The notes beneath the pieces were generated by a model. The model searched no databases. It was not told where the DNA came from and was given only the letters and a program-made list of their open reading frames with translations. The position numbers were made by a program, and so were the translations under genes. A DNA stretch of 64,000 nt, from positions 32,001 through 96,000 of the IMG/VR virus record IMGVR_UViG_3300049846_000568; one strand, given 5' to 3'. Positions 15,062 through 59,247 of this stretch are shown in pieces. The stretch is from a virus. Within the stretch, counting starts at the first letter, position 1, and each line of letters starts with the position of its first letter.

Positions 15062-15077
15062 TAAAGTTCTCAGACCC

Positions 15078-16150: not shown

Positions 16151-16181
16151 AACTATTCCTAACTTTCTTGATGTATTTCAA

Positions 16182-23358: not shown

Positions 23359-23783
23359 CAGCAGAACGTCAATCTCTCTTCGGGATAATTACTTACCGCA
23401 CTTACTCCCTGCTTAGCGCCATATTCGCTGAGAGTCCAAACCTTATCTGTGCCAGCGAAAGTGATATTGACTGGTTCCACTTCGTCAAGTAAGGACTGCA
23501 GTGTTCTCCGCATTGTCTCAACATTAAACTTATCGTAGTCCTGTGGCTTTTTATCACCAAGCAGGGTCGATACCTTGTGGTACAGTACGTGAATTTCGTC
23601 CTCACGTCGTTTCAATGCACCCTTGTAGTTCAGGATGTCGTTATCGTAATCGCGCAGAAGATCATACGCCGCCTGCTTGGCCTCTCGTGCGTTGGCCAAC
23701 TCCTCTTTTAGTCTCTCATTTTCCTCTAAGATTTCACCCAAACTCGAAAGAGCAGCGATTACACTATCAACTTCAATATCCAT
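23358..23783 (-). CDS. coiled-coil hypothetical protein
   Basis: Heptad-rich; coupled at both ends. Confidence 0.65.
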   Translation of the reverse strand: MDIEVDSVIAALSSLGEILEENERLKEELANAREAKQAAYDLLRDYDNDILNYKGALKRREDEIHVLYHKVSTLLGDKKPQDYDKFNVETMRRTLQSLLDEVEPVNITFAGTDKVWTLSEYGAKQGVSAVSNYPEERLTFC

Positions 23784-25377: not shown

Positions 25378-26243
25378 TTCTGTAGTCTACTCCATTCAAT
25401 AAAGGATGAGATTAGCCCATCCTCATATTCCATACCGTATCGTGAGCCAATTTGCCACGTCGTATCACGTGGACGGGGAGCTATACCCTCAAAGTATTCG
25501 TGTGAGATAGGCTGAATATCAGCTTCAATTATCCCATGTGTGTGATATTTAAGATCCGCCGCCACCCTAAACCTGGAGACCGTAATCGGGATACCAATAT
25601 GAATTGGCCAACTACCGGGATTCATAGCCTCGTCCCACAGTCGATATGCGGCGTCCTTGGCGAACACGGGTGAGAAAAACCTGTCATCAACCTGCAGCTG
25701 CTTTGGGTTCTCAATCATATGCTCTAGCGGATTCTTACGGCCAATATCCTGAAATGGACGAACACCAAGCACAAATGTCAATCTTGCGATGCTTGACCGC
25801 ACGCCAAGAATTTCCTTGACGGCTAGTTCGGCGGCGTACTTTTGCTTACCGTATTCGGTAATTGGATCGGGCTCACTTAATGCGTCGTAGGGTGGGTTTT
25901 CACCAGAGAATACCCCTTGACTACTAACCTGAATCATGTGCGCATCGTTTTGCTTGCACCAGTTAGCAATCACCTTAGGGATGTTGACGTTGATATTCTC
26001 ATACTTACCAGGATTACCCTCTACTACGTCAACCCTATTCTCGCCAGCCAGATTCACTACCACATCGGGGTGAAACAAACGCAAATGCTCAAGGAGGTCT
26101 TTTGTGTTCTCCATGTCTAGAGCATCGTATTCGGGATGGGGTGTACGGCGAACAAAACTAGCCACCACATTATCTGGCTTTGTCAGGATCATGTGCTGCC
26201 CGACGACGCCGCCCGCCCCAAAAACTAAAACTCTACGAGCCAT
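25374..26243 (-). CDS. RmlD-like NDP-4-keto-6-deoxyhexose reductase (extended SDR)
   Basis: GAGGVVG, PDVVVNLAG, QVSS..VFSG, YGKQK. Confidence 0.85.
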   Translation of the reverse strand: MARRVLVFGAGGVVGQHMILTKPDNVVASFVRRTPHPEYDALDMENTKDLLEHLRLFHPDVVVNLAGENRVDVVEGNPGKYENINVNIPKVIANWCKQNDAHMIQVSSQGVFSGENPPYDALSEPDPITEYGKQKYAAELAVKEILGVRSSIARLTFVLGVRPFQDIGRKNPLEHMIENPKQLQVDDRFFSPVFAKDAAYRLWDEAMNPGSWPIHIGIPITVSRFRVAADLKYHTHGIIEADIQPISHEYFEGIAPRPRDTTWQIGSRYGMEYEDGLISSFIEWSRLQK

Positions 26244-26931
26244 AATTCCAAAGCTCCAGGGTAGGATTAGGGTCGATAATTGACTCCAAGTGTGCACGGG
26301 CGTGGAAATCTCCACCGTCCAGGTTCATATACCGCTCGTACTTGGCCTGCTTGTCCTCGTCCCTCACGTAGCCGAGGTGCTGCATGATGAGCCCGGAGTC
26401 TAGTAGATAGCGACCACGACGCATGAGTGTCTGTACGTAATTGGGTTCTGATCCACAGGCTAGCCTGCGGTCAACGAACTGACCACCAAGGAAGTAGCGG
26501 AACATGCGCGAACTATTTGTTGGCGCCCATGCCTTATCTACGCGGAAATGTGTCTCATTCCACATGTGGAAGAACTTAATGTTGATGACGTCCACATCTG
26601 AGCGACGCATTAGTTCGCGGATATCTACGTTAGGACGTTCTGCCCAAAGCTTCTCGTCACAATCAATTGCAAGAATCCAATCACCAATCTCTGCGTGGTT
26701 TGAGAGGTTCTTCCACGAAGAGTTTCGCAGGACTCCCTCATGCGTACCAAACATGGGCTCTGGCATTCTATATACATTGGCGCCACATGATGCGGCAATC
26801 TCTGCCGTATCGTCATCCGAGCAGTCATCTGTAAAGACGATCTCGTCAGCGATATGGCCAAGGTGTTCTAGAACCTCTTTTAGATAGCGGCCCGACTCAT
26901 TACGTCCGACCATATTAGCTACAAGCTTCAT
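26233..26931 (-). CDS. GT2-family glycosyltransferase
   Basis: RNE...YL, DDCSDDDT, WILAIDCDE, HLGY. Confidence 0.85.
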   Translation of the reverse strand: MKLVANMVGRNESGRYLKEVLEHLGHIADEIVFTDDCSDDDTAEIAASCGANVYRMPEPMFGTHEGVLRNSSWKNLSNHAEIGDWILAIDCDEKLWAERPNVDIRELMRRSDVDVINIKFFHMWNETHFRVDKAWAPTNSSRMFRYFLGGQFVDRRLACGSEPNYVQTLMRRGRYLLDSGLIMQHLGYVRDEDKQAKYERYMNLDGGDFHARAHLESIIDPNPTLELWNYGS

Positions 26932-27098: not shown

Positions 27099-27349
27099 TA
27101 GGCGCTCCCAAAGATAATACACTCCAAGTGCGCTACAGCTACAGCGGCCACCTGCACTAGCTCGTCAACAAGATCGCCCTGATCCTTGTCTCCAAAGTGT
27201 GAACGAAGTACCTCTTGTGCCGCCTCACCAAATTCTTCAGCGAGAACAGTGATCCACTCTACGTTTGAGTGACTCTGCTCGCCCCATTTAGCTAACTGGC
27301 GCTCACGTTCAGCCGCTACCATTTCCAAAACCACATCTGTATTAGTCAT
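27098..27349 (-). CDS. MazG-like nucleotide pyrophosphohydrolase
   Basis: ERERQ..KWG, LAEEFGEAA, DELVQVAAVAV. Confidence 0.8.
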   Translation of the reverse strand: MTNTDVVLEMVAAERERQLAKWGEQSHSNVEWITVLAEEFGEAAQEVLRSHFGDKDQGDLVDELVQVAAVAVAHLECIIFGSA

Positions 27350-28178
27350 GCTCAATTCCTAACATGTCACAAGCCCGACGGAAGAGCGATTGACTCTCCT
27401 GCCAATACTTGTCTGCTTCACTTCCCTTACTGTGCGACGCATGCCAACTATGCCCGATAGAGATACGACCATCATAGTAGACACCGTATCCACGATGCCT
27501 AGCAAAGTAGGCGCAGAATGTCTCTTCGTAATAGTGCTTGGTTGGAAGGAAGGGTCCTAGATGGGCTGTTCTCTCCCTCGGAATCGAACCCTCCTCTACA
27601 AACAAGTCGACTACCTTAAGGTAATCTTCATCCGAAGCCAGAGCTTCCCACGTACTACGTCTCACAAAGAAGGCTGAACCTGAAACTGTCACCATCTCAA
27701 CCTTATCCCTGAACTGGATATCGTGTGGATCGTCCATGTGCCAGCCACGGTGTTTTGGTGCGGTGTTTGTCCCGCCAATACCCGCATGCGTAATCCTGCC
27801 GCGCTCATCGCGCTGTTTTGGTCCAAGGATATGAACATTGGGATCATCCTCAAACGACTTGGCGATAGCCATGACATCCGAAGTTGTCATCCAGACATCA
27901 GAATTGAGCAGGCCGATGATATCACCGGTACCCTGTGACGCAAGCTTATTGCATGCCGCAGCGTACCCCACGTTCTCGTCCAGATACCAATCAATATACG
28001 TTGACGGTATCGGGAAGTTGTAGCCGGTTAAATAATCTGGGCTGTCATCTTCTGACCCATTATCTGCCACATAGGCTTTCCATGGTGGGTTATCCGGCAT
28101 GTCGGAATTCAGGGTCAGCAGGAACCTGTCCAGCTGCTTCACCGTGTTATAGTTCACGATGCATAGATCTACGTTCAC
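27342..28178 (-). CDS. GT2-family glycosyltransferase (WbbL/rhamnosyltransferase-like motif set)
   Basis: IVNYNT, DNGSED, NVGYAAACN, LLNSD, VSGSAFFVRR, YYEET. Confidence 0.9.
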   Translation of the reverse strand: MNVDLCIVNYNTVKQLDRFLLTLNSDMPDNPPWKAYVADNGSEDDSPDYLTGYNFPIPSTYIDWYLDENVGYAAACNKLASQGTGDIIGLLNSDVWMTTSDVMAIAKSFEDDPNVHILGPKQRDERGRITHAGIGGTNTAPKHRGWHMDDPHDIQFRDKVEMVTVSGSAFFVRRSTWEALASDEDYLKVVDLFVEEGSIPRERTAHLGPFLPTKHYYEETFCAYFARHRGYGVYYDGRISIGHSWHASHSKGSEADKYWQESQSLFRRACDMLGIEHD

Positions 28179-30635: not shown

Positions 30636-32666
30636 TTACGCCTTTAGAGGAATCTCACATACATCATTAGCGCAGAACTTCTCACCCTCGGCGTCTAGCG
30701 CTGCGCCGTTGTATAGATCGTCCCACAGGATACCAAGTACGTTGCCGGTCTTGGTTTCCCACACATCCTCTGGAATGCGCTCGTAAGGCATCTGTGCGTA
30801 AGCCCCACCCTCTTCCAGCAGTGGAAGCATGCTGATGGACTTTAGCTGCCCATCAAAGGTGCGTAGAAGCGCACCAATCTGGTCCTTCTCATCATCCTGG
30901 AATGTGATGGTAACGGAAACCTGGTTGTCTGCCCAATAACGCTGTGCTAGAACAGCAAGGTTTGCCTTTTCCCACATAGAAACCTCGCGCTCTGTACGAA
31001 CCTGCGGACCTCTCGTTGGTAGCTCAACCACCATCGTGTTCTTGGGATCCATAACGTCGGGTTCGACGTGGTATCCAGCCATCTCAAGCGCACTCAGCAG
31101 TGGATCGTTGACTGCCAGTCTCATACGGCGAATATAAACATCTGCCGTAGGCCAGTGTACGCCTGGGGTTACCCCAAACAGTAGTGAAACGGTCCCAGAT
31201 GGCTTAACAGAGGTTGTCTTGATAGACTCGCGCACACCAAGCCAATCAGAGTATACGCGGTCATAACGTTGAACCTCATCATAGCCGCTGTTTAGCCATG
31301 TGCGTAGGTCTGTTTGACCGTGGCGCTCAGTGAATTGTGCGACACCCGAGACAGAGCAACCGATACGACGGTTACGCTGCATGATGGAGTTTGTCTCTGG
31401 CCAATGAGTCGGCAGTAGCGTAACAGACTTGGCATACAGATAAGCGACCTTGATGGTCCTCTTGTAGTCATCGAGCGTCTCGTGCTTAATGGGGAAGGTC
31501 TCAACCAGAGTGCAGCATTCAAAGGACTCTAGTGTCTGCTCACCGCATGGATTTGTGCCAGCAGCACGGTAATCGCGGTTATTCGGGGGATCAATTAGGC
31601 GACCATACTTACGGCATAGGTCCAGATAGATCAACCCTGGTTCACCATTGGCGGCGATACGCTCAGCAAGGTGGTCATAGTTGCCGCCTACCTCTGCGAA
31701 AACAGAGTTGTTTGATGTAAAGCCCCAACCATTGGGACCCATACGCTCAGGGTTGACCTCCCAATTCTTGAGATCAAGAAAGTCCTTATCATCTGCCGCG
31801 CCGAGGGCAATCTCCGCAGAACGACGTACATTACCAGCAACAACACACTTGCCGACAAGGTTCATCACATCAACAATATCTGTCGACGTAATGAAATCTC
31901 CCGCACGGCCACCCAAGATTTCACGAAGCTTTTCGTGCAGATCCTTTAACGGGGCATAGCCTGCTGCAATGCCTCCGAAACCCTTAATCGGCTCTCCAGC
32001 CTTGCGGATAAGGGAGTAGTCGAACTCGTAAGTGGGACGACCGGCAAAGAAGTAGCTCTCCAATAGAAGGGCCAGAGACTGACACCATCCCTCGCGAGAA
32101 TCGTCAATTGTGAATACCTCAACCTCATCTGTTGGCTGATGAAGCTGCAACTTACCGGAGCCCTTAGTGTCGAAACCAACGCCAACACCAAGCATCGACA
32201 TCTCCATGAGGCGCACAAATGGAAGGGTGGCCTCGTTGATGCTGCGTGACGACAGGTGCTCGGTAGAAATAAACGCGCAGTTCTGTAGGGCAGCTGAGTT
32301 CTTCTGCCCATTAACGAACTCGGTGCCCATCATCCATAGGCCACGACCAGGTGGTGTCCACTTACCAACGAACAGGCGCTCATAAGCGTCCTTTGCTGTT
32401 GCCTGCGCCTTGTTCTCGTTCCATGGCAGGCGATTACTCTTACACCAATCCTTCTGGATGGAGAACATGCCCTCAATAACGCGGCGGCATGTCTCCCACC
32501 AACGCTCTTTACTGCCGTCCTCCTTGCGTCTGCTGTACTTGGTGAGGAATGTTAGCTCCCCTAGATAGTTGCCCCCTCCAATCGGAAATCCCCAAGGCAC
32601 TTGCCTTGTCTTGTATGTGTCGATGAAGTCTTCTGGCAGATTAAAGGATAGATAATTCTCTGGCAT
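30636..32666 (-). CDS. nrdJ: class II (adenosylcobalamin-dependent) ribonucleotide reductase, monomeric RTPR-type
   Basis: PPGRGLW, LQNC, GVGVGFD, GNVRRSAE, TNPCGE, KPSGTVS, C-terminal CANDVC. Confidence 0.95.
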   Translation of the reverse strand: MPENYLSFNLPEDFIDTYKTRQVPWGFPIGGGNYLGELTFLTKYSRRKEDGSKERWWETCRRVIEGMFSIQKDWCKSNRLPWNENKAQATAKDAYERLFVGKWTPPGRGLWMMGTEFVNGQKNSAALQNCAFISTEHLSSRSINEATLPFVRLMEMSMLGVGVGFDTKGSGKLQLHQPTDEVEVFTIDDSREGWCQSLALLLESYFFAGRPTYEFDYSLIRKAGEPIKGFGGIAAGYAPLKDLHEKLREILGGRAGDFITSTDIVDVMNLVGKCVVAGNVRRSAEIALGAADDKDFLDLKNWEVNPERMGPNGWGFTSNNSVFAEVGGNYDHLAERIAANGEPGLIYLDLCRKYGRLIDPPNNRDYRAAGTNPCGEQTLESFECCTLVETFPIKHETLDDYKRTIKVAYLYAKSVTLLPTHWPETNSIMQRNRRIGCSVSGVAQFTERHGQTDLRTWLNSGYDEVQRYDRVYSDWLGVRESIKTTSVKPSGTVSLLFGVTPGVHWPTADVYIRRMRLAVNDPLLSALEMAGYHVEPDVMDPKNTMVVELPTRGPQVRTEREVSMWEKANLAVLAQRYWADNQVSVTITFQDDEKDQIGALLRTFDGQLKSISMLPLLEEGGAYAQMPYERIPEDVWETKTGNVLGILWDDLYNGAALDAEGEKFCANDVCEIPLKA

Positions 32667-46568: not shown

Positions 46569-49500
46569 TTACCACTCCTTGCCTTCAAGGTCTTCAATCC
46601 TGAACTGAACACCGACAGTAATGTTGCGTCGAATGGTGTCAATGACATCCTGCTTGTTGGGGAACTGATCCTTGAGTTCCGCGGGTAGGCGGATAAGGAT
46701 GAAGCCGCCCTTCTGGTATGTCATACCAGTTGCATTAGTAACGTCCCAATAGGCGTTACTTTCCGAAATCAACTGCTCTATCTCCTGCAGTGTTGCGGTG
46801 TCCTTTGCGCCACCACCCCTACGCCTCGTGTCGAGCATGACGAGATCGTTGATGTCTAAAGTAGAGGTGATATAAACCACAGCAAGTTGAACTGCTAGCG
46901 GATTGTAATCTGGGTCCAGCCTATTGAAGATAGATGGGTCAAGGGTCCAGCTAAGTGTTGTAGTACGAACCGAATCCGAGATAATCCTGTTTTCTTCATC
47001 CTTAACGAACTGTGGCAATGCGTAGACATAGATGGGCTTACCTACTAGGTCCCTATTGTGTCCCGGATACGGGTTTAGATTAAGCTGATTGCCGTCTGCG
47101 TATGTCAAGTAGTAGTTAAGTCTCGCGGTTGTGTAATCGACCTTAACGAGTGCAGGGTCGGTTGAATCTAGTGGGCTCACCAGTTCGATCTCACCAGTAG
47201 AGATGTTATAGTCTGCAATATCTTCCCAAGTCAAGGCTGTCCAGCTATCGTTGATGGATGCTCTCGTTGAGACCGTGAAGACGGGGCGTCGCGGATCCGC
47301 TGCCGTCCCATAAGAAGACACCACCGTAGGGACGGTCACCATATGTATTGGGGCTTGACGAACCTGAATCTTTGTGTCCGTTACGATAACGGGGGATTCA
47401 TCTTTTACGTCGATAAATGGGCGACCATAGATAATTGACCAAGATCCAGACTTAGCCTCCGGTACAGCATAGAATGCCTTCACGATGGTTCCGGCGTAGC
47501 CCTCAAGCCACGCATTTGTTGTTGGCAAATCATTAACGGCAGGGACTGCTATTGGCCGAATGAACGATCCAGTCTTAACTGGAAGACCCCACATATCGTG
47601 TGGCCCAAGATTGGCCGAAAGTGGCTCCACCTTGATTTGGGACCCTGGACTTGTGCAGATGCCGTAGACAGGCATTGCCAACCTATAGGGGAGCAGCGGG
47701 CCGCCATCTGCTGGAAGGTCCGCTTTCTTGTCCACCTCGTAGTCTGTAATAGCTGCAACAAAAACGTTTTCTGGACCCCTTGAGATCCATTCTAGGTAAG
47801 TCATCTCTGGTTTACCTTCTTGACTCAGGATGAACTCCTGATTCTTGATATCATAGAACCCAACCATAACCTCTGGATCCACATCAAGAGCAGAAAGAGA
47901 AATGGTTGCGTAATGACGCTGCGCCTCTCGTGGACCTACGGCGGTAGGCATCTCTGGGAATCCAAATGGTTTTCCACTGGCATTGCAGAACAACTTCAAA
48001 CCATCTACCTTGGTAATCCAACCACTTTCTTTGACGGGGTTAATACGCCCATGCTCGTCCTTGGAGTAGTACGTGTAACCCGCTACTCGATATACGTCGG
48101 CTGTTGGTGTAGTTGATACTGCTGGGTTTGACGTTGTCCTACCAATATACGGACCCGACTTATAGTTGGTGCCGCTTTGATTGTGTACACGTAGATTACG
48201 CAGCGTCAAAATACCGCTATGACTAATCGAGGCGACGATGTCGCTTGGTAAGTTTGTGGTAACGTTAGACCAATTGACGTTACTTAGTGTTCCGTTGCCC
48301 GTGTAGTTTGGCGTCAACGCAATAACCACGTCCCTACCGGTTGTTACTACGGCTGAACCACTGCGCTCTAAAGCGATGTTAGTCTGTGAATAGTATGACT
48401 GGTCTGTGTGGATTTGAATATCAGATACACCAAACTGCAGAATACGGCCAATACCAGTTGGAGTATCCTGCCCAAGACGAACCATTACAGTATCACCGTA
48501 AACGGGATTGAATGGCACGAAATAGGGCTCCCCATGCGCCACCCTTGCGTTAACCGGTACATTGACGTAGCCTGTTGGGAAATTCGCCAACCCACTACCC
48601 ACAAAACCGTTATAGCCCGGGAGGTTAGATGCCGTATGCACGCTGAGGGCTTCGAAAAGCATGCTCCCACCAAGAGACCCTTGAGCGCCTTCGACATGAG
48701 GGATGAGGGTTACGCCCCAGATTTTGGCGCTTCTGTTAAGAGATATCTGAATGATGTCCCAAATGTAGTTTGGCGTATTTGCGCCACCATAGTTGGATCG
48801 CTTCGACCAGGTGAATGTTGAGTTTCCGTCAGAAATACCGGAACGGCTCATCTGAAACAGGGGACTCTGGAAGAAAGTTGTATTTGGACTGGCAAGCGCG
48901 TTGTCTGGGATAGCGTCTGGGTAAACCCAATCTTCAATATAGGACCCGAACGCTCCATAATAGTCACTCTGTAGACGTAGGATCTGACTACCCATCATCG
49001 AGAGCATCTCGGCGTCTAGCGCGCCGTCTTGTTCAAGTGCGCCAAACGTAGACTGAAATCTAAGAACCGCATCGTGCGTTACGTTGCCCCAGTAACCATC
49101 TGTTGGCACATATGGGCCCGACATATAACCCCAGAAGATAAAGTAGTTAAGAGCGGTCTGCATCCAATAGACCACCTTACCCCAATCTCCTCGATTTAGC
49201 CTGAAGAAGGCTGCGTAGCTAGGGTAGTTATGGTTTGAGTGTGCGTTGTAGTAGTTCGCTGCAGCGAATGTATCAATTCCGTATGGATGCCTTACGCCAA
49301 AGTCGAATGGCATGTAGCTTGTAAAGGTTGTGCCAGAACCACTGCTAGCCCAAGTTTCGGTACGCCTATCTACAATATTGATTGTTTCGACGGCCGTTCC
49401 AGTGGCGGTCCATGTAACCGTTTTGGTGTCTAAGTCCTGTGCGGTGTCAGCATACTTTACGTCAACGCGCATACCATATGGTTTGGGTGGGTATGTTCTT

Positions 49501-51857
49501 GATATATACTGTCCGTTTACGTAGTTACCCGGAGTCAGGCGCTCCCTAACAACATGTGGACCAATCTCTCTCGGCACTGTAAACTTGGGCGTATATTCCT
49601 CGGTCCAAACATACGGTGGCTCATTCTCGTCAAGCTCGGCCGAATCTACATGCTCTACGCTAGAGTTTGTAACCTCAATAGAGTAGACGCGGCTTGAGTT
49701 CACGACCTTACGCAAATCCTCTTCACTCATACTCTCTTCAATAAGCTGCTTAACAGTCTTGGCTACGGTCTTACCGTTGTCTCCGGGTACCTCTAGCCTA
49801 CGCTGCCATACAACTGTTGGATCTGATCGGCTCTTAATACGCTCAACAAACTGATTACGTTCAATCTCACTCTGAGAGAGGATATCGTTAGCGCCATCTG
49901 CGGTGTTGTTGTTGATAACCCAGGATGGACGCCATGGAGATGAGAACGACCAACTACTGCTTAGCGTAAACTCATCACTATCATCAAGGGCACGGCCCTT
50001 CATAGCGTATAGGCAGATGTTGTACAGGAGCTTGTATGCGCCCTCTTGCGCCCAGGCACTCGCCATTTCAGCATAATCCTCTGGGGTACCGGCGTCGTAC
50101 GCTGTATCACCAAGGTTTAAACTAACGAGCTGCCCAGTAGTTGGATGTGCCAAATAGTTTGTGGCGATATCGACGGTGTCAATAATGACCGAACCACCGG
50201 AACTGAATTCCCGACGAATCATTACAGGCTTGTATGTGGTGTCTGCGGAGCTTCTAGCCTTCAGAATTGTCTCGTAGTATGTTGGATTGCTGTAGATGTA
50301 GTGAGATGCCCTATCTCCATTGCTGGACCAAACGGCCATCACATTAACTAGCGCCGGATGAAGAGAATTGTACTCGTCACCAGAGCCATCATTGAAGTCC
50401 CAACCGCCAAGCTGTGTGTCGGCATCGAAAAAGATGTCTGTCGTATTCGAAACAGTAAGTGTGCCAAGAGCCGCATAGTCGTCATTTGCCCCAGGGTAAT
50501 TGACAATAGATCCGTCATATGGGTCTACGAAGCTTGTAAAAGTGCAGCCCAAACCCTGTGGAAGTGAACGTGTTCCGCACTCGATAATGAGAGTGCCGCC
50601 AAGCTGACGCGTAAAGTAATCAATCTTATTTAGGTAGGGTGTGAAATCAAACTCATATGTCTCAGGATGCCAGACAAGGATGTCGAACTCCTGCAGTTGC
50701 GACATGGTGATTGTGTCGAAGTTGACATTCCAATATGTTGCGCTTGTCTTTTCGATTGCACCAGATGGGTTTGCTTTGTTGAGCTTCTCTGTAACTGGAT
50801 TGATGAACTGTAAATTGCCGGCGTTGTAATCACTGACACTCATGTTGTAGAAGACGTACGGAGCAATGGCTCTAGTTCCAGCGGTCCAATTTGGGTTTGT
50901 CCAGTTTGTGCTAACGGTACCGCAGCGAATAACCTGCTTTGATCTTGTAGGGTCGATTCTAACCTTCTCGGTAAAATCGCACGTTACGCGCCACCTAAAG
51001 AGCTGGAACAATCTAGGATCGTTAACCGCTTTCTTGGGCACATATACCTTGTAGCCATCGGCGGCGGCCGTCTTGATGCCAAGGAGTTGCTCTTTTTGAT
51101 TGGTCGGCTTTGTACTGTAAATTCGCTTGAATCTATTGGCCGGGTCGAAGACATCGCTCTCTTCTGGCACATACTGGTAGTAGTGTAGCGGATTTAGTAC
51201 TTCTCTATGATTGATGTTCTGGTTCTTAAACTGCCCATTTGTATCAATCTCTACCTTATTGTACTGAAGGTATAAATTCTCAGCCGTATCCGTATCAACG
51301 TAGGCGTAGACCCTGTAGGCGGTCTGGGCTTCTTCTGCCTCTTCAACCGCTCTCGCCACAGCGATTCTATACTTTGGCTTACCAGTCTCGTCTGTGTATT
51401 CCTTGCCGTTGTTGTCAACAACCTTTACGTTAGGAATGGTGAGAGGGTGGACCGTATCAAAAGACGAGTAACCCTTAATGTCTATGTGGAAGTACCGGCT
51501 TACGTGCACGTAGGGAAGGATTGACTCAGCCGTGTATTCGTTACCGGGACGAAGTTCAAAATCCTCATTGATACTGAACACATCAGCGACGGATGGATAT
51601 TCGTCAAAGATGGCCTGATTACCAAACTCATCCTGCAGAATACCGAGTTCGTCTGCGTACATGAGCTTACATGCGCCAAGCGTACCAGTTGTGTTTTCGG
51701 GCGTAATATTCGATGTATCGATGATGATCAGATTGTTCTCCGGGTTAAGAGCGGGGGCCTTAACCCAAGACAGATTTACATCACCATCAGGAACACGGAC
51801 ACCCCTACGAATGGCCTTTTCGTTACCCGCAGTAGATTGGTTGCGAAATCTGTCCAT
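46569..51857 (-). CDS. large tail/baseplate protein (1762 aa) with internal peptidoglycan-binding domain
   Basis: LNRGDWG..V..MQTAL...DGYWG..T..AV..FQ...DG PG_binding_1 signature; DTRRRGGG. Confidence 0.75.
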   Translation of the reverse strand: MDRFRNQSTAGNEKAIRRGVRVPDGDVNLSWVKAPALNPENNLIIIDTSNITPENTTGTLGACKLMYADELGILQDEFGNQAIFDEYPSVADVFSINEDFELRPGNEYTAESILPYVHVSRYFHIDIKGYSSFDTVHPLTIPNVKVVDNNGKEYTDETGKPKYRIAVARAVEEAEEAQTAYRVYAYVDTDTAENLYLQYNKVEIDTNGQFKNQNINHREVLNPLHYYQYVPEESDVFDPANRFKRIYSTKPTNQKEQLLGIKTAAADGYKVYVPKKAVNDPRLFQLFRWRVTCDFTEKVRIDPTRSKQVIRCGTVSTNWTNPNWTAGTRAIAPYVFYNMSVSDYNAGNLQFINPVTEKLNKANPSGAIEKTSATYWNVNFDTITMSQLQEFDILVWHPETYEFDFTPYLNKIDYFTRQLGGTLIIECGTRSLPQGLGCTFTSFVDPYDGSIVNYPGANDDYAALGTLTVSNTTDIFFDADTQLGGWDFNDGSGDEYNSLHPALVNVMAVWSSNGDRASHYIYSNPTYYETILKARSSADTTYKPVMIRREFSSGGSVIIDTVDIATNYLAHPTTGQLVSLNLGDTAYDAGTPEDYAEMASAWAQEGAYKLLYNICLYAMKGRALDDSDEFTLSSSWSFSSPWRPSWVINNNTADGANDILSQSEIERNQFVERIKSRSDPTVVWQRRLEVPGDNGKTVAKTVKQLIEESMSEEDLRKVVNSSRVYSIEVTNSSVEHVDSAELDENEPPYVWTEEYTPKFTVPREIGPHVVRERLTPGNYVNGQYISRTYPPKPYGMRVDVKYADTAQDLDTKTVTWTATGTAVETINIVDRRTETWASSGSGTTFTSYMPFDFGVRHPYGIDTFAAANYYNAHSNHNYPSYAAFFRLNRGDWGKVVYWMQTALNYFIFWGYMSGPYVPTDGYWGNVTHDAVLRFQSTFGALEQDGALDAEMLSMMGSQILRLQSDYYGAFGSYIEDWVYPDAIPDNALASPNTTFFQSPLFQMSRSGISDGNSTFTWSKRSNYGGANTPNYIWDIIQISLNRSAKIWGVTLIPHVEGAQGSLGGSMLFEALSVHTASNLPGYNGFVGSGLANFPTGYVNVPVNARVAHGEPYFVPFNPVYGDTVMVRLGQDTPTGIGRILQFGVSDIQIHTDQSYYSQTNIALERSGSAVVTTGRDVVIALTPNYTGNGTLSNVNWSNVTTNLPSDIVASISHSGILTLRNLRVHNQSGTNYKSGPYIGRTTSNPAVSTTPTADVYRVAGYTYYSKDEHGRINPVKESGWITKVDGLKLFCNASGKPFGFPEMPTAVGPREAQRHYATISLSALDVDPEVMVGFYDIKNQEFILSQEGKPEMTYLEWISRGPENVFVAAITDYEVDKKADLPADGGPLLPYRLAMPVYGICTSPGSQIKVEPLSANLGPHDMWGLPVKTGSFIRPIAVPAVNDLPTTNAWLEGYAGTIVKAFYAVPEAKSGSWSIIYGRPFIDVKDESPVIVTDTKIQVRQAPIHMVTVPTVVSSYGTAADPRRPVFTVSTRASINDSWTALTWEDIADYNISTGEIELVSPLDSTDPALVKVDYTTARLNYYLTYADGNQLNLNPYPGHNRDLVGKPIYVYALPQFVKDEENRIISDSVRTTTLSWTLDPSIFNRLDPDYNPLAVQLAVVYITSTLDINDLVMLDTRRRGGGAKDTATLQEIEQLISESNAYWDVTNATGMTYQKGGFILIRLPAELKDQFPNKQDVIDTIRRNITVGVQFRIEDLEGKEW

Positions 51858-51860
51858 GTA

Positions 51861-54800
51861 CTAAAACTCCCTATAATCGGGGCGTGCTTCTGTTAGGTCG
51901 TTCACTGATGTGGGCGTTCTCAATGGTCCCAGTGCGCCGAGCTGATACTGGCGATATCTATCGACCGCATACCAATCAGATGGGTTAACTTCCCATGTTA
52001 CTGGTGTCGCTGGCGCGAGTGGTGTAGCCTCATCGTAGAAGGTTGGCCAAGCGTAGGTACCGTTGGGGGCCAAATCTGGAATGGTCTCTGTTCTCTCACT
52101 GAACTGAACGGCGTTGCGGGGTAGACCATTAAGGTTTTCGACTCCATGAATCGAATCGATATACTCAACCCAGAACACAACATCGCCAGTCAAGCTCCAG
52201 TCTGGTGTTGCCGGGTCATTCCAGCCACCCGGAGTGGCGCCATACCCATCAATACTGCCATAAGCCCTGACATTGTCTATAGTAATCCCATCATCGGTTA
52301 TAGCAAACCCGTGATCAGAAGCCGATACATTTCCTGCTTGCACCGTCCAAGAATCCACCAATACACCATTGATATACCACTCTATTGACGTGCCCTCAAA
52401 CACTGCCCTAACAGTATCCCCGTCCGCATATGGGACTCCTGTATCGTTAAATACAACCGGACCGCCACCGTCTACCTCGAATACTTGCCAGTTGGCACCG
52501 TATCCACTAGCTACACCAATACCGAGATACTGATTGGAATTCAGGTAACGGACATACATGAGATCGCCGCTACCGCCTACAGTACCGCCAGAGAATGTCC
52601 AAGTTGATTCTACCGAACCATCAGCCTCACAGGTGGCAAATGCCTGACCTCCACCCGATGCTGGGAAGGTCTCCACCTTGTTGTTGTACACCCTAAAAAT
52701 TGAGGGACCAAAACCACTCCACGGTCCACCAAGCTCGGCGTTGTGGTTCTGGAGATCTTTATTGTTGATGTCGGTGAAAGTATCAATCAAAACGGGAGAA
52801 TGATACGACATGTTTGGTGATGCTGTCTCACTCTCTAGGGCCACCATCCAATAACCTGGAGACCATGGCGTAGCGGCCATAAATGGTCCTACGTTGAAGA
52901 CACCGTTTTCATCGGCCACAACTCGACCAGCCTCATTGTCCCAACCGGGAGACGCCGCGGCAGTTTCGTACTGGGTCGTCCAAACATCCTTCATATAGCG
53001 GCCCTTACGCCAATAAACTACGGCATAAGGTACTGGTGTATGTGAATCATCTTCAACTCGACCATATAGCTCAACACTAGAATTGCCGTCAGCGGGAATC
53101 TGCTGAACATTTGGCACTGCTGCAAGTGTATAGGTTGGCGTCGCCTTTGGAGTAATGTGGTAGTTCACAGTTGCCGACGCATCACCCGATACTGTCACCA
53201 TACCGGAGAGGTCCGTGTTTGTGCTGGCCGATAGAAGCTTAACCACAGCAAAACCGTCATCATTTGTTGTTACGGTTGTATAATCAAGCGTACCAAATGT
53301 GGTGCCGAGATTGAATGTGGCGTTGGGCTTTGGATTGCCATGAATATCTAACGACAGAAGCGTAACTATCAAGTAGTCTTGACCATCAGCGATAATGCTT
53401 GATGGGCTAATCCTTACCTCAACCTTATCCAAATCATACTCATTGTGGGAGATATAGATAAAGCCCTCATCAAGTACTGTATAGAAGGTGCTCAACGGAA
53501 GCTGGACCGGTGTAGCTGGATCGAACTTTGAGATCTCGTAGTTAATCGAAACCTCAGCGGGCAGTTCCTGATCAAACACCAATCGAGTCTTATTTTGGTT
53601 ATCTACATCCACATATTCGTGATCTGCGTAGAACGAGCGACTGACCTTGTAAGTCAACTCATATTCATGATCAACGTTTGTATTGTCTGATGTAGTAATT
53701 GCGTTAGTTTCCGTAAAGGTGGCTGCTGCTACTGTTTCGCCAGTATTAAGGTTGGTTACTGATATGTCGTAAATATCTTCATAAGCAGCATATAGGACCG
53801 TTGAACCTGTACCATAGACCGTTTGAGTGGTGTATTGGGTAAATCCTGGTGTCGCCTCGTCCCAAAAGGCGACCTGCCTATACTCCCTAGGTGTCAGCTC
53901 GTTTGTCTTAACGATGATTGGGGCACCCTGGCGAGCAACCCTTGAAAGGATCTTCGCGTCTGATGTAATTGTCGCTGTCTCTTCGGATGGCGTAGCATAG
54001 AAGTAGTATTCGTCGTTACGATCGTAGAACCACCCAGAATGAACCTGCGGATACCACTGCTCTGGGATATTTGGGTTCAATCTTGCGCGAACCACAAATG
54101 GTCCATACGAATATACGCCCCCATCTAGTGTTTCATCTACGGCGTTAGCGGGGTACGTAACTGCGGTGCCGTCATCGAATGATGGTTGCACTGTGTTAGA
54201 GTCGAGCCATACAATTACCCGACCATTGTCAATTGACTCCACGCCAATCCAAGTTACAACGTAATCTTCCGTATTTGGAATGCCGAAGTCATCCCTACTA
54301 ACCGTCATCGTCTCTAGATTATAGTTTGAGTTCCCTGGTTGTGGAGCAATTCCATTACGCCATGGGCCATTCTCGTCAACGACACCACTAAAGGTGTTTA
54401 GGCAGTCATACTCAAATAGCTCCCAGTACGGGCAGTTGGCTACGGGGTAAAGAGCACCAACTGGTGTGGCGTTTTCGTCAACAGCCTCAAACACAAACTC
54501 TGCAGTATCTGCCGTAAATGTCTTTTGTCCGTTAGTCCAAGTCGAAGACCCATTACAACGAACATACTCTGCGGGGATGAACAGGCCTGAACCGTCTACA
54601 TCTGTTGTGTAGCCACCATAGCTATTGTTATCGTCTGCGTCTGTTGTAACAATCTGAACCTTATAGGTACGGAGTCCGGTCTCGTATGGGTGCCAAATTA
54701 TTGCTGGTACAGGAATGGTAAAGCTTTGTAGTCCTTGGTCCGGAAGTGCCCCATTGATAGATACGGTATAGCGGTGCTTATCTGAGACCCACGTATCAGT

Positions 54801-56897
54801 GGAAGAAGCCGTTTCCTTGCTCTCCATTGAAATCGACACCGGGTGGAATGCAGAGATAAGGGGGGTAGAACCACCATCAATCGTAATTGGTGTGGCGCCG
54901 TCTGCGTATTCTAGCAGGGATGTTGTATCGCCACTAAACCAAGCGGTGTAGGTATCGCTCGATGGCATATACGCATAGTATGGCGAGCCGCCGTTGTAGT
55001 GCCAGTTGCCATTATAGATCTTGCAGCTTGTGATGTCCGCCCAAGTAAAACTATAGCTTGAGCTTACCGTATGTTCGCCACCGGTAGAGTCAACCCAAAT
55101 CATCCCAGGGACACTCTGTCCGTCCTGAGTCATGAAGAAGTGCTCAACTACGCTATTTGTAGTAGGTGTTGCGGACTGCTCACCGTTATTTGTTGTGAGC
55201 GAGAAAATGTGACGAAGAGTTCCCTTGCCAGTAACAGCAAGCTCGATGGTAAAGTATGCGGTTGTATCCGGGTTCTCGTACTTAGTGTAAGGTACTTCAC
55301 CCCAAATATTAACGTCAAAGGTGATCTTACGAAACTCGTCGCGTGTCTGCTTCCTGCGACCACGCAGCTTTACGTGTCCCGTAAACTCTCTAGCACCTGT
55401 TACCTCATCTGGGCGATAGACATATAGATCGTTACCGTCACCAATACCAGACTGCGTATCATCATCATCAAGTGGAGTAGCATCATATCTGCGCGCTAGT
55501 TCGGAATAACCTTCGCCTTCCTGTCCACCAGCATCCCATGTAATGTTGCCCCAAACAAAGTTGCCCCACGTACTTGGATACTCTTTGGCCAAGGATTGAA
55601 TTAAGTTGATGAACTTCTGTGTCGGCACGCCGTCAAGGCCAACAAAGTCTGTATGATTCTCCAGGTCATCAATCTCATACACCTCAGGAGTTGCCCCTGG
55701 GAAGTAAGAATCCGGTGTGGAGTCTACAGGATCCTGGAAGTACTGCCACAAACTAAGCTCTCGCCTAAGGGCCAACTTGAACGCCTCTACACCAACACCT
55801 GGCTTGTTGATAAACACATCAAGAATACGACCCTTGAAGTATTCGTTTGTCTCAAGATGGAGTCTACTAAGGTCTACCTTTAGGCCAAACTCGTCAAACC
55901 AGTTCCAGATATGGTGTGGCGATGCAGTATAGGCACTGTAGTTGATGAGGATTTCATCATAGTTCTTGTTGAGGAAGATGACGTCCTCAACATCGTCATG
56001 CCAAAAACCATATTCGTCATCTGTAAGATCGTAGAAGTCTTCCAAATTAGAACAACGAGACAGTTCAACACCATCACCACTAATCTGGTAAACGGCATTT
56101 GGCACGTCTGCAATGATGTAGATCCAAGCCTTCTGGTTTACGTCTGCCGTGTTGATAAACTGCTGAGCGTAGACGTAAGCTATATCATCTCGAAGGTCAT
56201 CTAACCACTCGCCAGCAACTGCACTAAGCAGCATGCCGGATAGCGAGGTTGGGGTGGCCAGTTCAGGTGTTGCGGGATCTTCGTTCTCAATCTCGCGAAC
56301 GGCCATCCACTCAGGAAACTTGTTCTGAATATCACGAACAGACTTGTAGGAAGGCTTGCCCTGAAGCGGTTCGCCAATCCTGACCCTAATGATAAGTTCG
56401 ACATCCGCTGACGAAAAGTCCTGATCACTACTAAGGCGAAGAACTACCCTACCATAACGATATGAGGATACCTCACCAATGTAATCAAGGTTTGTAACGC
56501 CAGCCTTAAATGCCCACTCATCGGGAAACTGCGCCGTAGCATCATCTATCGTATACAGGTCAAGAGCGCAGTTAACATCCGCTACACCGTTCAGTGTGGA
56601 AAAAGTAATGTCATAGTCTACAACATCAATACGACCAGATTGGTCAATAAACCTGTCATTGTCGATGATACCAATCTCTGTCTCTGTGGCGGAGAGCTGG
56701 TCATAGCCGACATATGTGTTATTACCTAAGCTGTCAAGACCGTAATTAGACTTAATTGTAGAGTAGTTGCGGTAAGATGGCGTCGCCATCTCGGATGCGG
56801 CACTCTGGTTATCGTAGAAATCGATGATACCAGAAGTCCAAGTGTTATCACTTTTTGTAAAGTCTTCTGTAACAAGTCTTAGGTAATAGGTCTTCAA
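51861..56897 (-). CDS. large baseplate/tail protein (1678 aa) with Ig-like and lectin-like domains and 17 ATP tripeptides
   Basis: DEFGLKVDLSRLHLETNEYFKGRILDV wedge-like motif; IIADGQD..D.HGNP and IPADG..D.S.TPVP Big_1-like repeats. Confidence 0.8.
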   Translation of the reverse strand: MKTYYLRLVTEDFTKSDNTWTSGIIDFYDNQSAASEMATPSYRNYSTIKSNYGLDSLGNNTYVGYDQLSATETEIGIIDNDRFIDQSGRIDVVDYDITFSTLNGVADVNCALDLYTIDDATAQFPDEWAFKAGVTNLDYIGEVSSYRYGRVVLRLSSDQDFSSADVELIIRVRIGEPLQGKPSYKSVRDIQNKFPEWMAVREIENEDPATPELATPTSLSGMLLSAVAGEWLDDLRDDIAYVYAQQFINTADVNQKAWIYIIADVPNAVYQISGDGVELSRCSNLEDFYDLTDDEYGFWHDDVEDVIFLNKNYDEILINYSAYTASPHHIWNWFDEFGLKVDLSRLHLETNEYFKGRILDVFINKPGVGVEAFKLALRRELSLWQYFQDPVDSTPDSYFPGATPEVYEIDDLENHTDFVGLDGVPTQKFINLIQSLAKEYPSTWGNFVWGNITWDAGGQEGEGYSELARRYDATPLDDDDTQSGIGDGNDLYVYRPDEVTGAREFTGHVKLRGRRKQTRDEFRKITFDVNIWGEVPYTKYENPDTTAYFTIELAVTGKGTLRHIFSLTTNNGEQSATPTTNSVVEHFFMTQDGQSVPGMIWVDSTGGEHTVSSSYSFTWADITSCKIYNGNWHYNGGSPYYAYMPSSDTYTAWFSGDTTSLLEYADGATPITIDGGSTPLISAFHPVSISMESKETASSTDTWVSDKHRYTVSINGALPDQGLQSFTIPVPAIIWHPYETGLRTYKVQIVTTDADDNNSYGGYTTDVDGSGLFIPAEYVRCNGSSTWTNGQKTFTADTAEFVFEAVDENATPVGALYPVANCPYWELFEYDCLNTFSGVVDENGPWRNGIAPQPGNSNYNLETMTVSRDDFGIPNTEDYVVTWIGVESIDNGRVIVWLDSNTVQPSFDDGTAVTYPANAVDETLDGGVYSYGPFVVRARLNPNIPEQWYPQVHSGWFYDRNDEYYFYATPSEETATITSDAKILSRVARQGAPIIVKTNELTPREYRQVAFWDEATPGFTQYTTQTVYGTGSTVLYAAYEDIYDISVTNLNTGETVAAATFTETNAITTSDNTNVDHEYELTYKVSRSFYADHEYVDVDNQNKTRLVFDQELPAEVSINYEISKFDPATPVQLPLSTFYTVLDEGFIYISHNEYDLDKVEVRISPSSIIADGQDYLIVTLLSLDIHGNPKPNATFNLGTTFGTLDYTTVTTNDDGFAVVKLLSASTNTDLSGMVTVSGDASATVNYHITPKATPTYTLAAVPNVQQIPADGNSSVELYGRVEDDSHTPVPYAVVYWRKGRYMKDVWTTQYETAAASPGWDNEAGRVVADENGVFNVGPFMAATPWSPGYWMVALESETASPNMSYHSPVLIDTFTDINNKDLQNHNAELGGPWSGFGPSIFRVYNNKVETFPASGGGQAFATCEADGSVESTWTFSGGTVGGSGDLMYVRYLNSNQYLGIGVASGYGANWQVFEVDGGGPVVFNDTGVPYADGDTVRAVFEGTSIEWYINGVLVDSWTVQAGNVSASDHGFAITDDGITIDNVRAYGSIDGYGATPGGWNDPATPDWSLTGDVVFWVEYIDSIHGVENLNGLPRNAVQFSERTETIPDLAPNGTYAWPTFYDEATPLAPATPVTWEVNPSDWYAVDRYRQYQLGALGPLRTPTSVNDLTEARPDYREF

Positions 56898-58107: not shown

Positions 58108-59247
58108 TTATGAGGCTATCTGTATTGTGATGCTACCAGGGATTACCTGCTCGTCGTCTTTGACTACGTAGTTCCTACGAATTGTCTCAACGCCGCGCGG
58201 TGCGAATCTATTGATACGCACGTCCTGGATAGCGGATGATGTGTCCATGATCGCCTGGATGAGTCTATTATACACCAAAGTATCGCCCGGAAGAAGCGAA
58301 TTGATGTAACGCATCACTGAAACTCTGACCATGTCTGCTAGGTTGTCTTCAACAACCGAAGATCCTAGCACAATCGATACTGAGATATCAACCAGGATCG
58401 TGCTCGGTTCCTTAACAATCATTCGTACGCCAACTGGCCGTACTTGGTCCATCGCAACTTTAGCCGAGGCGTAGACACCCACCGATGAGGTCGGGTTCTC
58501 CGCGATTACAAGAGCTTCAAAGGTTCCCATACCATAAGGAGCCTGGCGAATCTTCACATCGCGTACACCATTGACATTTAGGGCGGCGAACCTAACTGCA
58601 TCTGAAGTTCCGGAACTTGCTACACGGATAGCCTTAACTAGTCGTACTCGGAAGTTTTGATCGCTCTCATATCCAGGCTGTGGAGCAATAGCCTTAGGGT
58701 TTGTACAGTTTACCGTAGTACCTGGAGGAGAGGTAAAGTTATGGGTAGTCAGCGTATTAGCGGCGGCGCTGAACATCCCGTCGCTGAAACTTGGACGAAT
58801 CGAAGCAAAGACCTTTGTACGGCCCGCCTGAATGATCGCCTCGGCCGTTGTATCGAACGCGAGCTGCCTACCAATGAACGAATCTATTCCCGTATATACC
58901 CGAGTTCCTGAAGGAATGACAATATCGGAACCATAAGGCGTATCAATGTAGAAATAAAACGCTCCAAGCTGCGCATTAACGGCAGCCATATCCGATAAAG
59001 TACGGCGTCTAATGCCATAGAGTTCCCCCAAAAGATCTAATGATCTACCTGTAGCGGTAGAAATAACAGACTGAGCAAGGTTGTACTCTAAGGCATCATA
59101 CATGTCGCCCAACTGCTCACTAATGGCCTCGGTAAATGCCCGTGCTACAGAACCTGGACTAGTAGAAGTGATGGGAGTATCCTTCTCAAGCCGCCAAAGG
59201 GCCTCTCTCAAGATCTCTGCTCGTCTCTTTCTAGCATAAATTGCCAT
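58108..59247 (-). CDS. baseplate J-like wedge protein
   Basis: PGSVAR, STATGRSLDLLG..GI.R, IPSGT, ESDQNFRVR, V.GVRDV, RPVG. Confidence 0.9.
   Translation of the reverse strand: MAIYARKRRAEILREALWRLEKDTPITSTSPGSVARAFTEAISEQLGDMYDALEYNLAQSVISTATGRSLDLLGELYGIRRRTLSDMAAVNAQLGAFYFYIDTPYGSDIVIPSGTRVYTGIDSFIGRQLAFDTTAEAIIQAGRTKVFASIRPSFSDGMFSAAANTLTTHNFTSPPGTTVNCTNPKAIAPQPGYESDQNFRVRLVKAIRVASSGTSDAVRFAALNVNGVRDVKIRQAPYGMGTFEALVIAENPTSSVGVYASAKVAMDQVRPVGVRMIVKEPSTILVDISVSIVLGSSVVEDNLADMVRVSVMRYINSLLPGDTLVYNRLIQAIMDTSSAIQDVRINRFAPRGVETIRRNYVVKDDEQVIPGSITIQIAS

What the first reader, a model, noticed from the sequence alone, without database searches (positions are those of the whole stretch)
51861..56897. 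Seventeen dispersed Ala-Thr-Pro tripeptides in one virion protein: candidate sequon of a phage protein-modification system
Seen: ATP occurs 17 times in this 1678-aa protein (EMATPS, DPATPELATPT, GATPE, DATPL, SATPT, GATPI, NATPV, YATPS, EATPG, PATPV, KATPT, AATPW, GATPG, PATPD, EATPLAPATPV), plus 3 ASP and 2 STP; 17 of 23 TP dipeptides follow Ala. A rough composition estimate predicts about one. I found none in the neighbouring 1762-aa protein or in DnaE, and three in the tail fibre. Codons differ (GCG ACG CCA, GCA ACA CCT, GCC ACC CCA) and flanks are unrelated, so selection is on the peptide, not a DNA repeat. Inference: a convergently gained recognition motif in surface loops, most simply the Thr O-glycosylation site for the phage GT/methyltransferase cluster at 21.4-28.2 kb, giving a glycan-shielded baseplate. 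Alternatives are Pro-directed phosphorylation (the gene just upstream is a metallophosphoesterase) or docking sites for a decoration protein.
Basis: partly seen in the sequence, partly recalled or inferred. Interest (0 to 1): 0.9.

Follow-up and report, generated by a model that had tools for sequence, protein, structure and literature searches.

The report
Ala-Thr-Pro tag on phage baseplate protein
A giant baseplate protein of an uncultured jumbo phage, and about 130 relatives, carries 8-21 scattered Ala-Thr-Pro tripeptides where chance predicts fewer than one, and the one tag-less relative whose genome could be read also lacks the phage's sugar-transferase genes, so the tripeptide is probably a sugar-attachment signal.

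Summary
The 1678-aa protein (51861-56897, minus strand) has 17 Ala-Thr-Pro (ATP) against 0.58 expected (Poisson p about 1e-19). They are in frame, use 12 codon combinations, and the other 165 ORFs of the 146-kb contig show no enrichment.

ATP richness is a family trait: about 130 full-length homologues from jumbo-phage contigs have a median of 13. Some sites are nearly invariant and many are lineage-specific. All sites modelled with confidence lie in loops or linkers.

Six homologues have 0-1 ATP, through at least three independent erasures that leave the flanks intact. So the fold does not need the motif, and a trans-acting reader is implied.

The best candidate reader is a soluble 278-aa GT2 glycosyltransferase (27342-28178). 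It is present in 38 of 40 ATP-rich IMG/VR records; the two misses are truncated contigs. The whole glycosyltransferase/methyltransferase (GT/MT) cluster is absent from the otherwise syntenic interval of the only ATP-less phage that could be read.

My reading is an O-glycosylation sequon (confidence about 0.5). No chemistry was tested, and the genomic contrast rests on one lineage. The upstream 395-aa gene does not track the motif.

Two other readings of this stretch in the scan noted the same motif, and another note reports ATP in other virion proteins.

The parts
51861..56897 (-). Giant baseplate-module protein (1678 aa) carrying 17 Ala-Thr-Pro motifs. Layout: N-terminal beta domain, helical region (phrog_21059, aa 226-385), beta-rich middle, Big_1/invasin Ig-like domain (aa 1159-1247), a further beta domain, an insertion of about 190 aa special to this phage (about aa 1365-1560), and a conserved C-terminal tail.
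   Evidence: It lies two genes downstream of Baseplate_J (58108-59247), separated by the 395-aa gene.
27342..28178 (-). Soluble GT2-family glycosyltransferase (278 aa), the candidate reader or initiating transferase for the ATP motif. It is a core gene of the ATP-rich phages.
   Evidence: Pfam PF00535 at 1.9e-14. No hydrophobic segment (maximum KD19 of 1.07). Orthologues of 52-59% identity in 38 of 40 ATP-rich IMG/VR records and 7 of 7 records at least 90% complete. Syntenic about 19-24 kb downstream of the target. No tblastn hit in the ATP-less phage loci.
21417..26315 (-). Variable accessory sugar genes: GT17-like (21417-22202), methyltransferase (22647-23240), GT2 (23783-24664), methyltransferase (24646-25377), RmlD-like reductase (25374-26315). 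These are candidate glycan-elaborating enzymes.
   Evidence: Pfam and NCBIfam hits. Patchy conservation among G001, G003 and G005. None found in the ATP-less phage loci.

Best explanation
Ala-Thr-Pro is a short acceptor motif (sequon) displayed many times in surface loops and inter-domain linkers of the outer baseplate protein. In the infected cell a phage-encoded soluble glycosyltransferase, most likely the conserved 278-aa GT2 at 27342-28178, recognises A-T-P and attaches a sugar to the threonine hydroxyl. The variable neighbouring GT, methyltransferase and RmlD-like enzymes would then extend and methylate the glycan, so the assembled baseplate carries about 10-20 glycans per subunit. Shown: the enrichment, its peptide-level nature, its family-wide conservation with turnover, its loop location in the models, repeated complete erasure in some lineages, and the co-occurrence or co-absence with the GT cluster. 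Inferred: that the modification is glycosylation, that Thr is the attachment site, that GT2-278 is the initiating enzyme, and what the glycans do (shielding, stability or adhesion).
For: (1) Enrichment of about 25-30 fold is confined to this protein family. Of about 128 full-length homologues the median is 13 ATP against about 0.5 expected. The giant neighbouring proteins in 80 related loci have 0-2 and no excess over permuted tripeptides.
(2) The centre is a hydroxyl residue with strict context. Of 2806 xTP tripeptides, 1791 are ATP and 402 STP. Of AxP, 1791 are ATP and 212 ASP. Lys and Arg are strongly depleted at positions -1 to -3.
(3) 86 alignment column clusters carry ATP: a few are nearly invariant and 36 are singletons or doubletons. 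This is the turnover expected of a linear motif.
(4) In the AF2 models all 17 sites fall outside regular helices and long strands. They lie in loops, in linkers flanking the Big_1 domain, or in low-confidence segments; one forms a 3-residue bridge.
(5) The distribution is bimodal. Six full-length homologues have 0-1 ATP and no substitute motif. They are scattered in the trees, giving at least 3 Fitch losses and up to 5 lineages. The motif is erased inside conserved flanks, for example DPATPVDLPLNP against DPAKPIDIPLNP and FDETATPISLSL against FDETAESVSLSL.
(6) GT2-278 is present in 38 of 40 ATP-rich records, and both misses are contigs that end before the site.
(7) In the ATP-less P0060 phage the region from baseplate to DnaB is syntenic. 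The interval between the 82-aa gene and DnaB holds a Dam methyltransferase and homing endonucleases, but no GT, MT or RmlD gene.
(8) The closest GT-positive relative found by DnaB identity (62%) has a GT2-278 orthologue (43%, E 1e-71) at that site, and its target has 10 ATP.
(9) GT2 includes protein O-glycosyltransferases: the profile gave a weak hit to Listeria GmaR, E 0.012.
Against: No chemical evidence of any modification exists. The genome-level contrast rests on one ATP-less lineage, and only about 50 kb of that phage was read, so the GTs could lie elsewhere in it. GT2-278 sits among nucleotide-metabolism genes and could instead modify DNA or a host polymer. Its acceptor half (aa 116-278) has no characterised relative. 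A distant homologue (37% identity) in phage GX15bay is not accompanied by ATP enrichment. Ser does not substitute freely for Thr (ASP is not enriched), and Thr is often replaced by Asp or Glu at orthologous sites. Both observations would also fit a structural or binding role. Enrichment in other virion proteins is weak, apart from a roughly 260-aa protein encoded next to the major head protein.
Confidence: 0.5

Rival explanations
1. ATP is a docking motif bound non-catalytically by another protein, such as an assembly chaperone, a decoration or fibre protein, or a host factor. It is lost wherever that partner is lost or the host changes. The co-absence of the GT cluster in one phage would then be coincidence.
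For: The on/off pattern, loop location and turnover fit a binding motif as well as a sequon. Only one protein family is strongly enriched. Thr to Asp or Glu replacements are common.
Against: Within about 50 kb of conserved synteny, GT2-278 is the only gene conserved in all four compared ATP-rich genomes that has no counterpart in the ATP-less phage. ThyX gave no tblastn hit either, but a Thy1-family gene is annotated in that interval. No candidate partner varies with the motif in the 10-kb flanks of the six ATP-less loci. Ten to twenty copies of a three-residue site is unusual for stoichiometric docking.
Confidence: 0.17
2. ATP marks a different modification, such as Pro-directed phosphorylation, prolyl hydroxylation, or modification by a host enzyme.
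For: A hydroxyl residue followed by Pro is the classic context of Pro-directed kinases. Asp or Glu often replaces Thr at orthologous sites, and ADP, AEP and AEx variants occur. Independent losses could reflect host switches.
Against: No Pkinase-family gene is conserved in five genomes; there is one sub-threshold hit in G001 only. 2OG oxygenases are absent from G000, G001 and G003. The upstream 395-aa phosphoesterase-like gene is present in ATP-less phages and absent from ATP-rich G001. Host enzymes could not be tested because the host is unknown.
Confidence: 0.13
3. ATP is an intrinsic structural element of this fold, such as a turn, strand-start or helix N-cap (Thr as N-cap, Pro at N1), with no reader. 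The enrichment would reflect many similar domain boundaries.
For: Several sites precede a helix or a strand or flank the Big_1 domain. Ser, Thr, Asp and Asn alternate at some sites as capping residues do. A few sites are nearly invariant.
Against: Full-length homologues of 35-58% identity keep the domain order and flanking sequence while losing essentially every ATP. Many sites are lineage-specific. The neighbouring giant beta-rich proteins (about 1,800-2,100 aa in the related loci) have no excess. Ala at -1 is not explained by capping rules.
Confidence: 0.1

Closest known systems
Mycobacteriophage virion glycosylation (Freeman et al. 2023, as cited in PMC12619734)
   Same: Phage-encoded glycosyltransferases are reported to decorate the phage's own virion proteins with glycans that act as a shield.
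   Different: In that system the glycans are described at the C-termini of the capsid and tail-tube subunits. Here the candidate sites are 8-21 dispersed internal A-T-P tripeptides in a baseplate protein of an unrelated jumbo-phage lineage. The primary paper could not be read.
HMW1 adhesin with its dedicated cytoplasmic glycosyltransferase HMW1C/NGT (own knowledge; references listed in PMC12645811)
   Same: One soluble cytoplasmic transferase modifies one very large surface protein at dozens of copies of a three-residue sequon before export or assembly.
   Different: That system is N-linked on Asn in N-X-S/T and uses a GT41 enzyme. Here the acceptor is presumably Thr and the enzyme is a GT2.
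Mucin-type polypeptide GalNAc-transferases (GT27, GT-A fold; own knowledge)
   Same: GT-A-fold enzymes that prefer Thr over Ser and favour Pro next to the acceptor in exposed, unstructured segments.
   Different: They are eukaryotic, Golgi-resident, carry a lectin domain and have no strict sequon. No sequence relationship beyond the generic GT-A nucleotide-binding half was seen.
Bacterial O-glycosylation systems (PglL, PglS, TfpO; Bacteroidota D-(S/T)-(A/I/L/V/M/T); review PMC12645811 and own knowledge)
   Same: O-linked glycans on Ser or Thr in Ala/Pro-rich, disordered, acidic contexts.
   Different: Those systems transfer en bloc in the periplasm through membrane oligosaccharyltransferases, and most have no defined sequon. 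Here the candidate enzyme is soluble and the motif is a strict tripeptide.
Bacillus phage 0305phi8-36 ORF162 and Moorella phage MTATph1 CDS0049/0050
   Same: The closest cultured-phage homologues of the N-terminal and middle regions, at 23-27% identity, annotated as virion structural proteins.
   Different: The Moorella homologues have 0 ATP. No GT2-278 homologue is found in these phages.

Membership tests
Phage-encoded virion glycosylation system (mycobacteriophage type) | Phage genome encodes glycosyltransferases | tested here: met
   PF00535 twice, PF04724, an RmlD-like gene and two methyltransferases at 21.4-28.2 kb.
Phage-encoded virion glycosylation system (mycobacteriophage type) | Glycans demonstrated on virion proteins by mass spectrometry or staining | not testable with these tools
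   Uncultured phage; no proteomic data.
Phage-encoded virion glycosylation system (mycobacteriophage type) | Acceptor sites at the C-termini of capsid and tail-tube subunits | tested here: not met
   The sites are dispersed internal tripeptides in a baseplate protein. The major head protein region was not enriched.
Sequon-directed modification (general definition) | Short motif enriched far above composition and permutation controls | tested here: met
   17 against 0.58 expected; family-wide ATP 791 against 7-15 for the non-overlapping permutations.
Sequon-directed modification (general definition) | Motif presence co-varies with presence of the modifying enzyme | tested here: inconclusive
   38 of 40 IMG/VR records, plus G000 and the P0097 phage, are GT-positive and ATP-rich. 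One ATP-less phage is GT-negative at the syntenic site. Only one independent loss could be examined, and its genome is incomplete.
Sequon-directed modification (general definition) | Sites are solvent-exposed | tested here: inconclusive
   All sites lie in loops, linkers or low-confidence segments by DSSP on the AF2 models.
GT2 protein O-glycosyltransferases (for example GmaR) | GT2 catalytic domain, soluble | tested here: met
   PF00535; no transmembrane segment.
GT2 protein O-glycosyltransferases (for example GmaR) | Specific similarity to a proven protein O-GT beyond the nucleotide-binding half | tested here: not met
   PDB profile hits cover only positions 2-131. GmaR scores E 0.012, and chondroitin synthase is the best hit.
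Pro-directed phosphorylation substrate | A cognate Ser/Thr kinase conserved with the motif | tested here: not met
   No PF00069 match over threshold in G000, G001, G002, G003 or G005. Host kinases were not testable.
Big_1 / invasin-intimin Ig-like domain proteins | Big_1 / Invasin_D3 domain | tested here: met
   PF02369 at 5.6e-09 and PF09134 at 2.1e-08 for aa 1158-1247. Foldseek hits to intimin and invasin at E 2e-8. This names one domain only, not the protein's function.

The most novel reading that the evidence does not exclude
A widespread lineage of uncultured jumbo phages carries a self-contained cytoplasmic O-glycosylation system with a strict three-residue sequon (Ala-Thr-Pro). The sequon is read by a small soluble GT2 whose acceptor domain has no characterised relative. 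The phage uses it to coat its outer baseplate protein, and a probable head-decoration protein, with 10-20 glycans per chain. Some lineages have discarded the enzyme and the sequons together.
Probability: 0.4. Interest if true: 0.85.

Novelty: new variant of a known kind. Interest (0 to 1): 0.75.

Why it matters
Defined O-glycosylation sequons are rare in bacteria and unknown in phages. According to the review read here, most bacterial O-systems have no sequon, and the phage glycosylation cited in what I read concerns C-terminal tails of mycobacteriophage capsid and tail-tube proteins.

A three-residue tag read by a 278-aa soluble enzyme would be directly testable in E. coli and potentially useful for glyco-engineering. 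It would also show that large environmental phages build glycan coats on their host-contact apparatus, which bears on host recognition, resistance to proteases and defence evasion.

Independently of mechanism, the family gives a clean natural experiment of motif gain, maintenance and wholesale erasure.

Tried and rejected
- **DNA-level repeat or motif:** rejected. 17 of 19 GCNACNCC matches are in frame, with 12 codon combinations.
- **Compositional artefact:** rejected by shuffles and permutation controls.
- **Substitute motif in ATP-less homologues:** none found.
- **Link to the upstream 395-aa phosphoesterase or exonuclease-like gene (phrog_284):** rejected by presence/absence.
- **Avoidance of ATP in neighbouring proteins:** not seen (49 observed against 57.5 expected).
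- **Conserved ATP in the 418-aa family:** not seen; the site is mostly GTP.
- **Fold search of the N half against PDB:** no meaningful match.
- **More ATP-less genomes:** IMG/VR scans with P0060, P0098 and an ATP-less alignment found no close relatives. The metagenome scan gave 7 loci, none close to P0098 (at most 39% identity); their ATP content was not counted. The P0098 contig (84 kb) has no retrievable DNA. Homologue searches with the 418-aa protein and DnaB did not list a protein from it. The genome search cannot read Logan records.
- **GX15bay phage with a 37% GT2 homologue:** no ATP enrichment, which is uninformative at that distance.
- **Freeman et al. 2023:** could not be read.
Full report
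**The observation**

The ORF at 51861-56897 on the minus strand starts with TTG and encodes 1678 aa. Homologues begin with the same MKxYYLRL N-terminus.

Composition predicts 0.58 ATP. 20,000 shuffles gave a mean of 0.59 and never more than 5. The Poisson p is 1.6e-19.

At DNA level, 17 of the 19 GCNACNCC matches on the sense strand are in the reading frame, and they use 12 different codon triplets. The pattern is about 12 times denser in frame than in the rest of the window. The signal is therefore on the peptide.

The contig that holds the window is a 145.8-kb virus record. Its other 165 ORFs contain 15 ATP against 10.8 expected.

**What the protein is**

It lies in a baseplate module. Baseplate_J (58108-59247) and small wedge-like genes are upstream. 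A 1762-aa protein with a peptidoglycan-binding domain and further large virion proteins are downstream.

Pfam recognises only a Big_1/Invasin_D3 domain at aa 1159-1247, and PHROGs a 'virion structural protein' region at aa 226-385. The nearest cultured-phage relatives are Moorella phage MTATph1 and Bacillus phage 0305phi8-36 types, at 23-27% identity over part of the length.

AlphaFold2 models were built in two halves from 59-sequence alignments:
- The N half has mean pLDDT 83. It shows an N-terminal beta domain, a helical region and beta-rich domains.
- The C half has mean pLDDT 75. It shows a string of Ig-like sandwiches that match intimin and invasin.

Residues about 1365-1560 are an insertion absent from most homologues and are modelled poorly.

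**The motif is a family property**

Two database searches returned about 130 full-length homologues, mostly on contigs of 150-255 kb. Nearly all have 8-21 ATP (median 13) against about 0.5 expected.

In 80 IMG/VR loci every orthologue is ATP-rich (4-19 copies, the lowest counts in orthologues cut by a contig end), whereas the adjacent giant proteins have 0-2. Across those loci the neighbours show no excess or deficit: ATP 49, expected 57.5, permuted tripeptides 47-62. The targets have ATP 791 against 7-15 for the non-overlapping permutations.

Over 1789 instances the motif has these properties:
- TP is preceded by Ala in 64% and by Ser in 14% of cases.
- A-x-P is Thr eight times more often than Ser.
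- Lys and Arg are nearly excluded from positions -1 to -3.
- Aromatic, then acidic, then Gly or Pro residues are favoured upstream.

In a 46-sequence alignment some sites are almost invariant: Q403 in 45 of 46, Q1129 in 43 of 46, Q215 in 33 of 46, Q474 in 31 of 46. In total, 86 column clusters carry ATP in at least one sequence, and 36 of those in only one or two. Ancient sites and continuing gain and loss therefore coexist.

**Location of the sites**

By DSSP on the models, the sites lie as follows:
- in long ordered loops (38)
- just before helices (214, 402)
- between strands (576, 668, 810, 968, 1015, 1342)
- in the linkers on either side of the Big_1 domain (1128, 1252)
- in the C-terminal coil (1624, 1630)
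- in low-confidence segments (473, 1554, 1563)

**Natural knock-outs**

Six full-length homologues have 0 or 1 ATP: P0113, P0116, P0112, P0060, P0098 and P0101. They have normal Ala, Thr and Pro content and no replacement motif.

Their nearest relatives are ATP-rich; for example P0055 is 58% identical to P0060 and has 14 ATP. They are dispersed in two domain trees. Fitch parsimony gives 3 losses in the central-region tree, and P0112 and P0116 are additional lineages in the N-terminal tree.

Pairwise alignments show the motif removed inside conserved flanks, by different substitutions in different lineages:
- P0060: ATP changed to AEP, AKP and DTP.
- P0098: ATP changed to AES, ARD and AYP.

The fold therefore does not need the motif. 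The all-or-none pattern points to a trans-acting factor that is sometimes lost.

**The candidate factor**

It comprises a GT17-like gene, two GT2 genes, two methyltransferases and an RmlD-like reductase.

I compared G000 with three complete relatives, G001, G003 and G005. Most of the cluster is patchy, but the 278-aa GT2 at 27342-28178 is conserved in all three and lies syntenically about 19-24 kb downstream of the target. It has no hydrophobic segment and carries conserved GT-A motifs.

A search of 40 IMG/VR records that carry ATP-rich orthologues found it in 38, at 42-59% identity, including 7 of 7 records at least 90% complete. The two misses are contigs that end before the syntenic position.

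For the ATP-less P0060 phage I walked along its contigs (L081, L120-L122). From the baseplate to DnaB the gene order matches G000, and flanking genes are recognisably orthologous: the 418-aa, 219-aa, dCMP-deaminase-like and 82-aa genes, and DnaB at 52%. The interval that holds the GT cluster in G000 contains only small ORFs, a Dam-type DNA methyltransferase and two homing-endonuclease-like genes. None of the G000 cluster proteins gives a tblastn hit.

Among the DnaB homologues listed, the nearest one checked outside the P0060-like group (62% identity, contig of 78.7 kb) comes from a phage with a GT2-278 orthologue (43%, E 1e-71) at that same site. Its target is P0097, with 10 ATP.

In summary, 40 GT-positive phages are ATP-rich and the single GT-negative interval belongs to an ATP-less phage. 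This is suggestive and not conclusive. It rests on one independent event, and only about 50 kb of that genome was seen.

**Other candidate readers**

- The upstream 395-aa gene (phrog_284, exonuclease/phosphoesterase-like) has sequence orthologues in the ATP-less P0060, P0113 and P0101 loci. Genes of similar length sit at the same position in the P0112 and P0098 loci. It has no orthologue in ATP-rich G001. It is unrelated to the motif.
- No protein-kinase family gene is conserved.
- 2OG oxygenases are not conserved.
It targets amines and could not be examined in the ATP-less phage.

**Beyond this protein**

In complete genomes a protein of about 260 aa, encoded directly after the major head protein, keeps an ATP near its C-terminus in all four genomes and a second ATP in three. 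G001 has a 1618-aa fibre-like protein with 11 ATP. Proteome-wide enrichment outside these proteins is weak, at 1.3-2.4 fold.

**Interpretation**

The best reading is a sequon for O-glycosylation of Thr by a phage-encoded soluble GT2, with variable elaborating enzymes. It works like the HMW1/HMW1C arrangement of one dedicated cytoplasmic transferase and one giant surface protein with many sequons. Its Thr-Pro preference resembles that of GT-A GalNAc-transferases. It is a member of neither family.

It differs from the reported mycobacteriophage virion glycosylation in target protein, site architecture and phage lineage. I give this reading 0.5.

The rivals are a non-catalytic docking motif (0.17), another modification or a host reader (0.13), and an intrinsic structural element (0.1). 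GT2-278 may yet prove to modify DNA or a host polymer, since its acceptor half has no characterised relative. Also, a 37%-identical GT2 in phage GX15bay comes without ATP enrichment.

Noticed in passing
G000 contig 129539-130327 (window coordinate 97539-98327, outside the window); locus L159:540-1328: A 262-aa protein encoded directly after the major head protein (phrog_3922) keeps an ATP near its C-terminus in all four compared genomes and a second ATP in three. It may be a head-decoration protein carrying the same tag.
   Followed up: partly
G001 (L096) 202772-207628 and 200988-202760: A 1618-aa fibre-like protein with an FN3-type N-terminus has 11 ATP (p 1.5e-9). The adjacent 590-aa fibre protein has 3 ATP inside a repeated G/A-ATP-S/R unit. 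These are specific to this relative.
   Followed up: no
window 52200-52800 (about aa 1365-1560 of the target): An insertion of about 190 aa is present in this phage and absent from most homologues, which cover only 81% of the query. It is modelled at pLDDT below 50, and ATP sites sit at its C-terminal boundary (1554, 1563).
   Followed up: no
L121:12859-19239 (ATP-less P0060 phage): The interval that replaces the GT cluster is crowded with mobile nucleases (Endonuclease_7, HNH_3, two HNH/homing-endonuclease-like ORFs) and a Dam-type D12 methyltransferase. A LAGLIDADG gene lies nearby. This suggests the cluster was displaced in a region of high turnover.
   Followed up: partly
window 30636-32666: The RNR-like 676-aa gene is only 26% identical to the RNR at the same position in the ATP-less phage and has no orthologue in G001. 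The nucleotide-metabolism genes at this locus are exchanged among relatives.
   Followed up: no
window 46569-51857: The 1762-aa neighbour carries a PG_binding_1 domain (aa 896-955) and a weak endolysin PHROG hit, so it is probably a virion-associated cell-wall-binding or lytic protein. Its orthologues average 0.18 ATP.
   Followed up: no
MK557849.1 (L132) 7105-18249: The unrelated 52-kb phage GX15bay has a GT2-278 homologue (37% identity) heading a seven-gene cluster annotated with GT, rhamnosyltransferase and methyltransferase genes, next to its terminase. Its proteins show no ATP enrichment.
   Followed up: yes
A possible link to virion modification was not examined.
   Followed up: no
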